IMG/VR virus record: IMGVR_UViG_2537561692_000011
Reading direction: 5' to 3' (one strand)
Length of the DNA stretch: 5,936 bases
Source of the DNA: a virus
Taxonomy: Duplodnaviria > Heunggongvirae > Uroviricota > Caudoviricetes
Numbering within the stretch: the first letter of the stretch is position 1; every line of letters begins with the position of its first letter. A program made the position numbers and the translations under genes. Of the stretch, positions 1,785 through 5,200 are shown piece by piece. The notes beneath the pieces are model-generated. The model saw only the letters and a list, made by a program, of their open reading frames with translations. It ran no database searches and was not told the origin of the DNA.

Positions 1785-4700
1785 TCAGCTGATACTGATG
1801 CCTGCGGTGGCTTTCTTCATCACCACAACCAGCAAATCGCTGATACTTGCTGTGGGATACCAGTCATTTACCAGCCATGATGACACCGAAAACTCCAGCG
1901 TCATGTGGCCGCGACCAGCTGGCATATCAATAACACCACTGTAAATCAGCGTATTATCCAGCGCGGTACGGTTATAAATTTCAGCACCGTTTTTCCGTAC
2001 TATCAGGCGGCATGACGAATAAATATCGTTATTCTCCCTCTCATGTTTAGCGCCGCTGAATGCCACCGCCGGAATAACAATCTGCCGGTCAAACGGCTGA
2101 TCGTCATAAACCCTGACGGTGATGGTCCCTGATGGCCACCGTTCCGGTGCACGGGAGTCCCGGGGGAAAGCTTTGCCCACTGTTTTAACGAGATCGCCTT
2201 CAATCTGGTTGGCGGACAGTTTTCCCAGAACCCGACAGTTCTCGTTAATCGTGACGTTGTTGAGCGTCCCGGAGTTCGCATTCACGTTACCGCTGATATC
2301 GGCATTTTTCGCCGTCAGCCACCCGTCCGGTGTCAGGGAAAATACCGGAGGATTACCGCCGCTGGTAATGGTGGGAGCCGTCAGGCGTTTCAGGAACACG
2401 TCGTTCATGAATATCTGATCGCCCTGCCCAACAAACATCGGCTTTGTGTTGCCATTCGCAGGATTAATCATCGCAATCCTGTCTGCCGCCAGCAGCACCT
2501 GACTCTGCATGCCGTCAGGGGTGTTCTCAATACCGGCACCAATACCCGCGATATAAAGGCGTCCGTCCTGCATCTGCTGCAGCTTCACAGCCCACATGCT
2601 GTTCAGGTTATTATTTGTATCAACCTGAACCTTCTGTATCTGCTGATGCGCACTCTGGTCTTCCAGTTTCTTATTGACGGTCTGGTATTTCATTGCTGAC
2701 ATCCGTATGGACGTCCTGATTTCAGCAGGTCAGGCGCAAGCTGACCGTTATCAATCTGCGTCCACAGCTCCTGAGCCAGATGGGTTTTCCCTATCTCGCC
2801 TTTGAAAAAATCCAGATAGCCGATGCTCATCACTCGGCTGACCACAGCCTCCACGAATGCCGATTTGCCAACGGTGTTCACACTGCGAACGTAAAAATAA
2901 TAATCATGGCCCGGTTTGATATTGATACTGGCGCTATCCAGTACAGGCCGCCAAGATAACGCGCGCTGGTTTCAACCTGCCTGATATCCGCAATCCGTTT
3001 TTCCGAGAACCAGAACTCAAACTGTACCGTCGGGTCATAAACCGCAAGATGCGGCGTGGCGGTTATCTGAAAATACCCCGGTGTCAGCTCAATCTGCGAC
3101 GGCGCTGCCGGTGCGGCAATCCGGAACGATACCGATGCCGGATCGCCCTGCTGCCCCCACGCATTTACTGCCCGGACTGTCAGCCTGTAGTTCCCCAGCG
3201 CCAGTTGTGTGAAGCGGTATGTGGTTTCCGCCGTCCGGGCTGTGCTGACCAGCCGCTCACTGCCGTCATCCGCTGCCACGGTCAGGCGAAGCATGAAACT
3301 CACGCCCTTCACCACCTTCGGCGTATCCCAGCGGGCCAGTACCTGATACTCCCCGCTGTCTGCGGTGACTTCGGCGGTCAGATGCTGCACTGCTGGCGGC
3401 GTGACACCATTCACCGTGCCGCTCTGGTCGCCGTCAAAGTGCGCCCCGTTATCCACGATGGCTCTTTTTCCGGTACATGCTGCACGGCGGTGATGGCATA
3501 CGTGCCGTCTCGTTCTCACGGATACTCACGCAGCGGAACAGGCGCTGGCGCACGTCGGCAGCTTCAGCCCCCAACGCTGTATCGCAACGCCGTCAGGAAC
3601 ACGGCTCACTTTACCTTCACGCCGTCGGTGACGGACTGACCTCCACGCTGACCGGATCCCTCCGTCAACCAGGCTTATCAGCGTGGTCCGGAGATGGCAG
3701 CGTGATTTCACGGTCGAGCGTCAGCGTCCGGGTCTGGCTGTTCACCGCCAGCACGCGCCCCGGTGCGATACCGCATAGTCATCATCGCAGATTTCAATGA
3801 CATCCCCGGTACATGGCGAAGCCCTTCGCACCCACGCTGAAGTCCACGGTCTGCGTTTCCAGCAGTTCCGTTTTAATCAGCCACAGCCCGGCGCGGTGTG
3901 CCTGCCCCCGGCTGGTACAGCCAAAGCATCCATCTTCGTGACGTTACGACCGTAACGGGCAATGGCCTGCGTTCTCACAAGCTCTGTCGCCGTCTCCCAG
4001 CCGTTTTCGGGTCAATCCAGTTCACCTCAACGGCATTATGGCGGTCCTTCAGGGCGCTGAAGCTGTAGCGGAACGGCGCCCATCATCCGGCATCACCACA
4101 TTACTGCGGTTATAGGTCCACACCTTATCGAGGTCGGTCCTGCACGAACGTCAGCGTCTGCCCGTTCCATACCGGCATACAGCGCATCGCGAGCAGAAAT
4201 CACTGAGCACATCCCACGCCTTACGCTGGTGGTCAGAGGCATTACAGGTGATGCGCGGCTCCGTGCCGCCAAACCGTCCGGCACGACTGGTCGCAGTACT
4301 GGCCGATAATACAGCGCCCATTTATCCACATCGCCGCACCAAGACGTTTCCCCATGCCGTAGCGCGGATGGGTCAGCATATCCCACAGACACCAGGCCAT
4401 GTTGTTGCTGTATGCTGGCTTAAACGTTCCGTCCCAGATACCGCTGTATTGCCGCGTCTGCGGGTTATAGTTCGACGGCACCTGCAGAATACGCCCGCGC
4501 AGATGATAATTACGGCTCACCTGCTGGCTGCCGAACTGCTCCGAGTCCACCTGCACGCCGACCAGTGCCGTGTTCGGGTAGCACTGTTTCACATCGATAT
4601 TTCGGTGTATGACGACCAGAGCGTTTTGTTCTGCAGCTGGTCTGTGGTGCTGTCCGGCGTCATCTGCGCATCCGGATATTAAACGGGCGCGGCGGCAGGT

Positions 4701-5200
4701 TATCCACCACCACCGAGGCCAGATACTGGAGTGGTTTTGCCCTTAATGGTGATGTCTTTTTCCGTCACCCAGCCACCTTACGTGTATCTGAACCAGCAGG
4801 CGACTTCCGACGGATTCCGTCCCCCTTTGAGGTGGTTTCCACCAGTGCCTGCACACCGAAGGTAAAGCGCAGACGGTCGATGTTTGCCGACGTGATGGTC
4901 CGGGTATCGGCGTGTCTATTTCACTTCCGTACCCAGTACCGTCTCGGACCGAGATTCAAATCCCTCCGGCGGTGTCTGTTCCTGCTCACCTGCCCGGAAC
5001 ACCACCGTGACACCAGAGATGTTAGTATTCCCCTCACTGTCCAGCACCGGTGTACTGTTCAGCAGCACGCTTTTTAATCCATCCACCGGACCTTCAACCG
5101 GCCCTTCGCTGATGGCATCGATCACACTCAGCAACTGCGTGGACTTCAGGTTGTCCTTTGCTTCGCGCGGGGTATGCCCCTTACTGCTGCCTTTACCCAT
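1785..5200 (-). pseudogene. J: Host specificity protein J (tail tip central fibre), lambda gpJ homologue, disrupted by multiple single-base frameshifts
   Basis: ATG at 5200..5198 with GGAG RBS; TGA at 1787..1785; locus length 3416 nt, close to the ~3.4 kb expected for gpJ, so no large insertion or deletion. gpJ-like translation is found in successive minus-strand ORFs in different frames. 4916..5200: MGKGSSKGHTPREAKDNLKSTQLLSVIDAISEGP...GTEVK. 4242..4592: KQCYPNTALVGVQVDSEQFGSQQVSRNYHLRGRILQVPSNYNPQTRQYSGIWDGTFKPAYSNNMAWCLWDMLTHPRYGMGKRLGAA. 4093..4392: DVDKWALY. 3526..3711: LISLVDG, KVSRVPDGVA. 2878..3519: [11 protein letters not shown]...[26 protein letters not shown]...FEFWFSEK. 2690..2881: [13 protein letters not shown]...YLDFFKG. 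1785..2702: intact C-terminal 305 aa, ...NSMWAVK...[24 protein letters not shown]...VIDMPAGRG...[10 protein letters not shown]. Frame switches located by hand at about 4918, 4905, 4778-4784 (two), 3509-3512, 3461-3464, 2933 and 2700, with more in 3530-4240 and 4600-4900. Confidence 0.85.

What the first reader, a model, noticed from the sequence alone, without database searches (positions are those of the whole stretch)
2690..5200. Host-range gene J is shattered by at least ten single-nucleotide frame changes, with no large insertion or deletion
The gpJ-like protein signal hops between all three minus-strand frames, sometimes twice within about 25 nt. At 4778-4784 the motif LLVQI is in one frame, R in a second and GGWVTEKDITIK in a third. 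Around 4905-4918, GTEVK is followed by a stop and DTPI / TRTITSANIDRLRF resume in shifted frames. At 3461-3512, [24 protein letters not shown] needs two single-base restorations. At 2933, WIA|[13 protein letters not shown] needs one G restored in GCG(G)CC. Every event I could resolve is a 1-nt deletion relative to the coding frame. Total locus length is still about that of an intact J, so the gene is inactivated purely by micro-deletions. Deletion-biased decay is known for bacterial pseudogenes, but this density with well-preserved amino-acid sequence between events is unusual and could equally be an indel-error signature.
Basis: partly seen in the sequence, partly recalled or inferred. Interest (0 to 1): 0.55.

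Follow-up and report, generated by a model that had tools for sequence, protein, structure and literature searches.

The report
Assembly artefact shatters prophage J gene
The phage tail gene J really is broken by dozens of one-base gaps in this sequence, but the gaps sit where the genome's several copies of the gene differ, so they are almost certainly a draft-assembly error, not gene decay.

Summary
Against an intact counterpart, the window lacks 71 bases in 65 events (59 of one base, 6 of two). 59 events are in J and 6 in gene I, all within 2646-5597. There are no true insertions.

It is not gene decay:
- 19 of 21 substitutions in J are synonymous.
- Window 3001-4750 has 41 deletions but 3 substitutions.
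- Deleted bases are at codon position 3 (37), 1 (15) or 2 (1).
- 43 of 59 events fall exactly on sites polymorphic among 80 J alleles (null 9.4).
- 32 of 64 deleted columns are sites where two intact J copies of one related genome differ (odds ratio 14, p=3e-20).
- There is no homopolymer bias.

The window is a whole 5,936-bp contig (AQCD01000047.1) of the draft genome of E. coli p0305293.8. That name belongs to an ETEC series; the paper on that series reports Illumina reads assembled with Celera Assembler. Another draft contig carrying a different J copy has the same base sequence over 2.7 kb (one substitution) and differs only in which sites are dropped.

Best reading: reads from co-resident prophage copies were pooled, and the consensus dropped the base wherever they disagreed. 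This is not a biological feature, and interest is low.

The parts
1..1053 (-). 5' part of the side tail fibre gene (stf, N-terminal domain), running off the contig end. No deletions and no substitutions against intact copy A.
   Evidence: RefSeq annotation of the intact counterpart; alignment.
1118..1717 (-). lom (Ail/Lom outer-membrane protein), an intact 199-aa ORF. It has 15 substitutions against copy A and no deletions.
   Evidence: ORF list; Pfam PF06316 E=5e-127; substitutions.
1785..5200 (-). Tail tip attachment / host-specificity gene J. It is 3,416 nt here against 3,480 nt (1,159 aa) intact. The reading frame is broken by 59 deletion events (65 nt), all located between 2646 and 4952.
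   Evidence: events and motifs; Pfam J domains in the fragments and in the intact counterpart.
2646..5597 (.). The damaged zone. All 65 deletion events (71 nt) of the contig fall here. There are clean islands at 2965-3460, 4333-4597 and 4953-5289.
3251..5936 (.). Stretch whose base sequence matches contig L003, a different J copy from another draft record. There is one substitution in about 2.7 kb. The two contigs differ only in which single bases are missing.
   Evidence: pairwise; 36 of L003's 50 gaps are shared with the window.
5261..5902 (-). Tail assembly gene I. Six 1-nt deletions (5290-5597) sum to a multiple of three, so a 213-aa ORF stays open, but about residues 104-141 and 183-205 are out of frame.
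   Evidence: Pfam PF06805 matches only residues 14-97.
5800..5936 (-). 3' end of gene K (C40-family peptidase), cut by the contig end. No deletions.
   Evidence: Annotation of the intact counterpart, mapped through the alignment.

Best explanation
The one-base gaps were made by the genome assembler; they are not mutations.

The window is one short contig of a short-read draft genome of an ETEC strain that, judging from its nearest finished relatives, carries several lambdoid prophages with very similar tail genes. Where those copies are nearly identical, reads from different copies were stacked together. At each position where the copies disagree, mostly synonymous third-codon positions, the consensus step called no base, so the position vanished. 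The result is a J (and I) sequence that is correct base for base between events but loses one nucleotide at each inter-copy difference.

Shown here:
- where the deletions are;
- that they coincide with inter-copy and allelic variable sites and with codon position 3;
- that another draft contig has the same bases with a different set of drops;
- that the window is a whole small contig of a draft assembly.

Inferred:
- that reads were pooled;
- the exact consensus step responsible.
- that the sequencing and assembly methods reported for this ETEC series (Illumina, Celera Assembler) apply to this isolate.
For: 1. Provenance. The window equals the entire contig AQCD01000047.1 (5,936 bp) of GCA_000358695.2, from E. 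coli p0305293.8. P0305293.1 is listed as a 2011 Bangladesh ETEC isolate sequenced at IGS (PMC4309559). The paper on the multi-colony ETEC series reports HiSeq2000 paired ends, more than 200x coverage, Celera Assembler and contigs of at least 500 bp (PMC4462620).
2. Deletions without divergence. Window 3001-4750 has 41 deletions and 3 substitutions. J has 65 deleted nt against 21 substitutions, 19 of them synonymous. Window 1-2600 is 99.4% identical to finished genomes with no gap.
3. Deleted sites are inter-copy variant sites. 32 of 64 deleted columns are sites where intact copies A and B of one finished genome differ, against 6.6% of retained columns (odds ratio 14, p=3e-20). 45 of 59 events lie within 1 nt of a site that varies among B, L003 or L002 (null 13.8 +/- 3.3, maximum 26). 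43 of 59 lie exactly on sites where at least 5% of 80 J alleles differ (null 9.4 +/- 2.9, maximum 20).
4. Codon position of the single-base deletions is 37/15/1 for positions 3/1/2 (p=8e-9).
5. Homopolymer lengths at deleted bases match background (p=0.19), and the deleted bases are evenly spread (G22, A17, C17, T15).
6. The same signature appears in other draft contigs. L003 has 99 deletion runs, including 35 in gene L (position 3: 22, position 1: 5, position 2: 0). It shares 36 of its 50 J/I gaps with the window and has 1 substitution against the window over 3251-5936, where intact copies A and B differ at roughly 100 sites. L002 comes from another lineage and shares 22 of its 45 gaps.
7. 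Contrast with real decay. In the finished relative, the second prophage has annotated pseudogenes flagged simply 'frameshifted' or 'internal stop'. That is not the dozens of breaks per gene seen here.
Against: - The reads and the rest of the assembly were not available, so pooling and read depth were not observed.
- The left 2.6 kb of the contig has no deletions although the nearest finished genomes also hold four matching places for it, and copies A and B differ by only 3-9% there. Copy number alone therefore does not explain the boundary.
- Roughly a quarter of events are not on a known variant site of the copies I could obtain. The true partner copies in this strain are unknown.
- About half of the A/B variant sites inside the damaged zone were retained rather than dropped.
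- The main text of PMC4462620 does not name p0305293, and its supplement is not held. The methods link rests on the isolate-naming series.
Confidence: 0.92

Rival explanations
1. Real pseudogene. The prophage J and I genes of this strain were inactivated in vivo by about 65 independent one- or two-base deletions (deletion-biased decay).
For: The gaps are present in the deposited sequence and in its annotation: the 305-aa J fragment is protein ENG75066.1. Prophage tail genes do decay, and the second prophage of the finished relative has frameshifted K and H genes and an internal stop in L. The look-up reports the same contig in 3 samples.
Against: - The deletion-to-substitution ratio is about 3:1 in J, and 41:3 over window 3001-4750.
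- 19 of 21 substitutions in J are synonymous.
- Deletions avoid codon position 2 (1 of 53) and coincide with sites polymorphic between copies. A mutational process blind to the reading frame and to other copies would not do this.
- There are no true insertions and no event longer than 2 nt.
- The finished genomes that match best have an intact 1,159-aa J.
- A different J copy in another draft has the same bases with a different subset of gaps.
Confidence: 0.02
2. Random read-level indel error, such as an unpolished long-read or low-coverage consensus.
For: A deletion-only error profile with correct sequence in between is typical of poorly polished long-read consensus. Errors confined to repeats are typical of failed short-read polishing.
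Against: - There is no homopolymer enrichment (p=0.19).
- Random errors would not prefer codon position 3 or inter-copy variant sites.
- Random errors would not recur at the same columns in separate contigs (36 of 50 shared with L003).
- The paper on the ETEC series this isolate's name belongs to reports Illumina data at more than 200x.
Confidence: 0.03
3. Same cause (pooled paralog reads) but a different last step.
For: Exactly one base is lost per variant site, nothing is inserted, and the flanks are untouched. The window contains only A, C, G and T. The loss was already in the GenBank record, because the annotated protein ENG75066.1 is the ORF created by the gaps, so it was not introduced by later databases.
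Against: There is no direct evidence for such a step. About half of the A/B variant sites in the zone were kept as a plain base. Two contigs with the same bases dropped different subsets, which fits a per-column probabilistic base or gap call at least as well.
Confidence: 0.2

Closest known systems
Bacteriophage lambda gpJ (tip attachment / host-specificity protein) within the K-I-J-lom-stf tail module of lambdoid prophages
   Same: The gene order K, I, J, lom, stf is on one strand. The intact counterpart has the full J domain set: FNIII-A_GpJ, Phage-tail_3, Ig_J, Ig_J_second, Phage_Tail_Tip and Ig_GpJ_C. The window's fragments carry the same domains. Outside the gaps it is about 99% identical to an annotated gpJ of ETEC prophages.
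   Different: As deposited, the reading frame is interrupted 59 times, so no J protein is encoded by the sequence as written. The evidence says this is a property of the record, not of the phage.
Collapsed or mixed repeat consensus errors in short-read draft assemblies. Overlap-layout-consensus assemblers such as Celera Assembler place one repeat consensus at several sites. This description is from my general knowledge, not tested here.
   Same: It is a short stand-alone contig of a multi-copy element. The errors sit at inter-copy differences. The same consensus appears in another contig that represents a different copy.
   Different: The usual outcome of collapsing is a chimeric or majority allele, or a contig break. 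Here the outcome is loss of the base. I did not look for, and do not know of, a published description of this particular outcome.
Deletion-biased decay of bacterial pseudogenes
   Same: Many small deletions, no insertions, and a gene that cannot be translated.
   Different: Real decay comes with relaxed substitutions and with indels that ignore the codon phase and the other copies. Here substitutions are 90% synonymous and the deletions track synonymous polymorphic sites.

Membership tests
Lambda gpJ tail tip attachment protein | Characteristic domain set (FNIII-A_GpJ, Phage-tail_3, two Ig_J domains, Phage_Tail_Tip, C-terminal receptor-binding Ig_GpJ_C) | tested here: met
   The intact counterpart has all six, with E from 1e-30 to 1e-43. 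Window fragments 2878-3519 and 1785-2702 carry Ig_J, Ig_J_second, Phage_Tail_Tip and Ig_GpJ_C.
Lambda gpJ tail tip attachment protein | Position in the tail module between I and lom/stf | tested here: met
   ORFs and annotation of the counterpart. Pfam gives Lambda_tail_I and Ail_Lom for the neighbours.
Lambda gpJ tail tip attachment protein | One continuous reading frame of about 1,130-1,160 codons | tested here: not met
   There are 59 frame-changing events in the deposited sequence. This is judged to be an artefact of the record.
Genuine pseudogene formed by deletion-biased decay | Relaxed selection on substitutions (non-synonymous about as frequent as expected by chance) | tested here: not met
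   19 of 21 J substitutions against the intact copy are synonymous, and 19 of 21 are at codon position 3.
Genuine pseudogene formed by deletion-biased decay | Indels placed without regard to codon phase or to the sequence of other gene copies | tested here: not met
   Codon position is 37/15/1 for positions 3/1/2 (p=8e-9). 43 of 59 events fall on polymorphic sites against a null of 9.4.
Genuine pseudogene formed by deletion-biased decay | Lesions supported by the sequencing reads | not testable with these tools
Read-level (homopolymer-type) indel error of long-read or pyrosequencing consensus | Errors enriched in homopolymer runs | tested here: not met
   Homopolymer lengths at deleted bases are 36/29/3/3 for lengths 1/2/3/4+, against an expected 40/21/6/4 (p=0.19).
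Read-level (homopolymer-type) indel error of long-read or pyrosequencing consensus | Errors independent between separately built contigs | tested here: not met
   36 of L003's 50 gaps and 22 of L002's 45 gaps are in the same columns as the window's.
Mixed-repeat consensus artefact of a draft assembly | The element is multi-copy in the genome | tested here: inconclusive
   The source genome itself could not be inspected. The nearest finished genomes have 4-7 matching places, and the median is 3 per E. coli genome.
Mixed-repeat consensus artefact of a draft assembly | Errors coincide with differences between the copies | tested here: met
   Odds ratio 14, p=3e-20 for A/B differences. Permutation tests.
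Mixed-repeat consensus artefact of a draft assembly | The same consensus is reused for different copies | tested here: met
   The window and L003 have 1 substitution over 3251-5936, while intact copies A and B differ at roughly 100 sites there. It was not shown that L003 comes from the same assembly.
Mixed-repeat consensus artefact of a draft assembly | Excess read depth and mixed alleles at the affected sites | not testable with these tools
   This needs the raw reads.

The most novel reading that the evidence does not exclude
The gaps are real. They would be made by an unknown process that removes a single nucleotide at mismatches in heteroduplex DNA formed when co-resident prophage copies recombine. 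Recombination between diverged prophages would then erase their tail genes site by site. This would also explain why deletions sit at inter-copy differences and are shared between copies.
Probability: 0.01. Interest if true: 0.8.

Novelty: not a real feature. Interest (0 to 1): 0.06.

Why it matters
There is no biological significance. The strain most likely has ordinary, intact J and I genes, like its finished relatives.

The practical significance is data quality:
- The same signature occurs in at least two other draft prophage contigs now held in IMG/VR (L002, L003), where it also hits genes L and V.
- The broken pieces have entered protein databases under misleading names. The C-terminal J fragment is ENG75066.1, 'fibronectin type III family protein'.
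- The deposited gene I is an open 213-aa ORF that passes Pfam even though two internal stretches are out of frame.

Anyone counting prophage pseudogenes, J host-range alleles or 'novel' small phage proteins from such drafts would be misled. A simple screen catches the problem: many one-base gaps, very few substitutions, and gaps at third codon positions.

Tried and rejected
- Exact-match searches for a gap-bearing 81-mer found nothing in genome contigs or metagenome contigs. A 96-mer private to the window found nothing in IMG/VR. The source was instead found through the exact-protein index.
- I tried to show that L003 comes from the same assembly by looking up a broken ORF in the shared segment. 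Only the window's contig carries it, because L003 has three extra gaps there.
- A batch test asked whether shattered J genes cluster in particular source genomes of IMG/VR. It was not possible, because the search for related loci keeps only the 80 best, mostly intact, loci. I used those loci as a population sample instead.
- A literature search for the WGS prefix and assembly accession found nothing. The supplement of PMC4462620 is not held.
- The copy-number comparison of the clean and damaged halves was uninformative: four places for each in the nearest finished genomes.
- Technical failures: locus L005 never reached the script machine and was re-fetched as L006; a local-alignment script timed out; the multiple alignments merged neighbouring one-base gaps, so the event counts come from pairwise alignments.
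- No tandem repeats and no Rfam family were found in the window.
- Programmed frameshifting was rejected. Fifty-nine shifts, with no insertions to compensate and an intact 1,159-aa J in the nearest finished genomes (about 99% identical outside the gaps), cannot be a decoding mechanism.
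Full report
WHAT IS IN THE WINDOW. The minus strand carries the distal end of a lambdoid prophage tail module:
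- the 3' end of K (5800-5936);
- I (5261-5902);
- J (1785-5200);
- lom (1118-1717);
- the 5' part of the side tail fibre gene stf (1-1053).
This rests on the ORF list, the RefSeq annotation of the best intact match and Pfam. The intact counterpart of J is a 1,159-aa 'phage attachment tail tip protein J' with the full set of gpJ domains. No tandem repeats and no Rfam family are present. The plus-strand ORFs are antisense shadows of these GC-rich genes.

CHECK OF THE OBSERVATION. The window matches thousands of E. coli prophages. The best matches are finished ETEC genomes, and they span 6,006 bases against the window's 5,936. A global alignment to the best one gives 53 substitutions, one apparent insertion in an ambiguous patch, and 71 missing bases. 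The missing bases form 65 events: 59 of one base and 6 of two adjacent bases. Fifty-nine events are in J, all frame-changing; six are in I; none are elsewhere. The affected zone is 2646-5597, so it extends beyond J into I. Inside it are clean islands at 2965-3460, 4333-4597 and 4953-5289.

WHY THIS IS NOT DECAY. Four features argue against real mutations.
- The sequence between the gaps is almost undiverged. Window 3001-4750 has 41 deletions and 3 substitutions, and the left 2.6 kb is 99.4% identical to finished genomes without a single gap.
- The substitutions that do exist in J are 19 of 21 synonymous, so the gene has been under purifying selection.
- The deleted bases respect the reading frame. 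Of the 53 single-base deletions in J, 37 remove a third codon position, 15 a first and 1 a second (p=8e-9).
- There are no true insertions and no event longer than two bases.
Real prophage decay looks different. The second prophage of the finished relative has annotated pseudogenes flagged only 'frameshifted' or 'internal stop', not dozens of breaks per gene.

WHY THIS IS NOT ORDINARY READ ERROR. Homopolymer lengths at the deleted bases match the background (p=0.19), and all four bases are lost about equally. The gaps also recur in the same columns in other contigs, as described below.

WHAT THE GAPS TRACK. An 81-nt stretch with seven gaps and a 66-nt stretch with four gaps each have an exact match in IMG/VR, but in two different contigs.
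- L002 is a J copy of another lineage; its best intact relative is 96.1% identical.
- L003 is an 11.6-kb tail module whose best intact match is a second prophage (copy B) in the same finished ETEC genomes that hold the window's best match (copy A).
Both contigs are themselves riddled with one-base gaps. I fetched intact copies A and B from one finished genome, NZ_LR883006.1, and compared:
- 32 of 64 deleted columns are sites where A and B differ, against 6.6% of retained columns (odds ratio 14, p=3e-20).
- Allowing for ambiguity in gap placement, 45 of 59 events lie within 1 nt of a site that varies among B, L003 or L002 (null 13.8 +/- 3.3, maximum 26 in 3,000 permutations). 51 of 59 lie within 2 nt.
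- Against a population sample of 80 J genes from IMG/VR, 43 of 59 events fall exactly on sites where at least 5% of alleles differ (null 9.4 +/- 2.9). 58 of 59 are within 1 nt of a polymorphic site.
The gaps are therefore erased polymorphic sites, which explains the third-position bias.

THE SAME CONSENSUS IN TWO CONTIGS. L003 shares 36 of its 50 J/I gaps with the window. By pairwise alignment, the window and L003 differ by one substitution from 3251 to 5936. Every other difference is a one-base gap private to one contig: 19 runs in the window and 12 in L003. Intact copies A and B differ at roughly 100 sites over that span. Left of about 3000 the two contigs diverge by 9-19%, and L003 ends at about window 2222. 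L003 shows the same signature outside J: 35 gap runs in gene L (third position 22, first 5, second 0), 7 in a V-like gene, and none in M, T, U, Z or FI.

PROVENANCE. The window is the complete contig AQCD01000047.1 (5,936 bp) of GCA_000358695.2, from Escherichia coli p0305293.8. P0305293.1 is listed as a 2011 Bangladesh ETEC isolate sequenced at IGS (PMC4309559). The paper describing the multi-colony ETEC series reports Illumina HiSeq2000 paired ends with 300-bp inserts, more than 200x coverage, Celera Assembler and contigs of at least 500 bp (PMC4462620). That paper's main text does not name p0305293 and its supplement is not held, so the methods link is an inference from the isolate-naming series. 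The gaps were already in the GenBank submission, because the annotated protein ENG75066.1 is exactly the 305-aa ORF that the gaps create.

MECHANISM.
- Shown: the placement of the gaps relative to inter-copy differences and codon phase, the shared consensus, and the draft-contig origin.
- Inferred: reads from co-resident prophage copies were pooled wherever the copies are similar enough to overlap. At each disagreeing column the consensus emitted nothing. That could happen because the two alleles were laid out in adjacent columns each opposite gaps, so 'gap' won both columns. These two sub-steps cannot be told apart here.
- From general knowledge, not tested: overlap-layout-consensus assemblers such as Celera place one repeat consensus at several sites. 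This would account for two contigs having the same bases.

WHAT REMAINS UNEXPLAINED.
- The left 2.6 kb is clean, although the nearest finished genomes also have four places matching it, and copies A and B differ by only 3-9% there. My best guess is that the partner copy in this lineage is too divergent there, as L003 suggests, but I could not test this.
- About a quarter of events are not on a variant site of the copies I could obtain, and about half of the A/B variant sites in the zone were retained. The true partner copies in this strain are unknown.
- The 15 substitutions in lom mostly do not come from copy B.

COMPARISON WITH WHAT IS KNOWN. The gene is an ordinary lambda-type J in an ordinary K-I-J-lom-stf module. 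The only family feature it fails is the continuous reading frame, and that failure belongs to the record. The closest known phenomenon is the mixed or collapsed repeat consensus error of draft assemblies. What is unusual is that the outcome is loss of a base rather than a chimeric allele. It resembles deletion-biased pseudogene decay only superficially.

VERDICT. This is not a real feature of the organism and interest is low. Its only value is as a warning about a class of draft genomes whose broken prophage genes have propagated into IMG/VR and protein databases. The decisive test is to map the isolate's own reads to the contig and to the intact copies.

Noticed in passing
window 5261-5902 (-): Gene I looks intact to an ORF caller: 213 aa with a Pfam Lambda_tail_I hit. 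That is only because its six one-base gaps sum to a multiple of three. About residues 104-141 and 183-205 are out-of-frame nonsense, and this scrambled protein was called as a gene in the deposited contig.
   Followed up: yes
window 1289-1698 (lom): There are 15 substitutions against intact copy A within 410 bp, of which 8 are synonymous and 7 are not. The 1,288 bp to the left and about 950 bp to the right have none. Only 2 of the 15 match copy B. This is either a real recombination patch from a third lom allele or a chimeric consensus. The sources list this exact Lom protein (WP_001673866.1) for only three sequences.
   Followed up: partly
L003 (IMGVR_UViG_2537561686_000004), whole 11.6 kb: A second draft prophage contig has the same signature: 99 deletion runs against its intact counterpart. 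They are concentrated in J (44), L (35), V-like (7), I (6) and K (4), and absent from M, T, U, Z and FI. They are again at codon positions 3 and 1.
   Followed up: yes
L002 (IMGVR_UViG_2534682095_000012) about 3472-3911: This J copy from another lineage has an AT-rich insert of about 450 bp between J and I that is absent from the window and from copies A and B. It may be a moron-type insertion, and the intact relatives annotate a 'hypothetical protein' there.
   Followed up: no
window 1785-2702 (-): The C-terminal J fragment created by the gaps is deposited as ENG75066.1, 'fibronectin type III family protein'. This is a misleading name that has entered NCBI nr.
   Followed up: partly
window 4851-5150 and 5601-5900: At sites where intact copies A and B differ, the window carries B's allele in these stretches (for example 7 of 7 in 5001-5150) and A's allele elsewhere. 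The contig is therefore a mosaic of A-like and B-like segments, either a genuine mosaic prophage or a chimeric consensus.
   Followed up: partly
L006 / NZ_LR883006.1 2385347-2389700: In the finished ETEC L5 reference genome the second prophage has genuine annotated pseudogenes: tape measure frameshifted, L with an internal stop, and K frameshifted. This gives a useful picture of what real prophage decay looks like.
   Followed up: no
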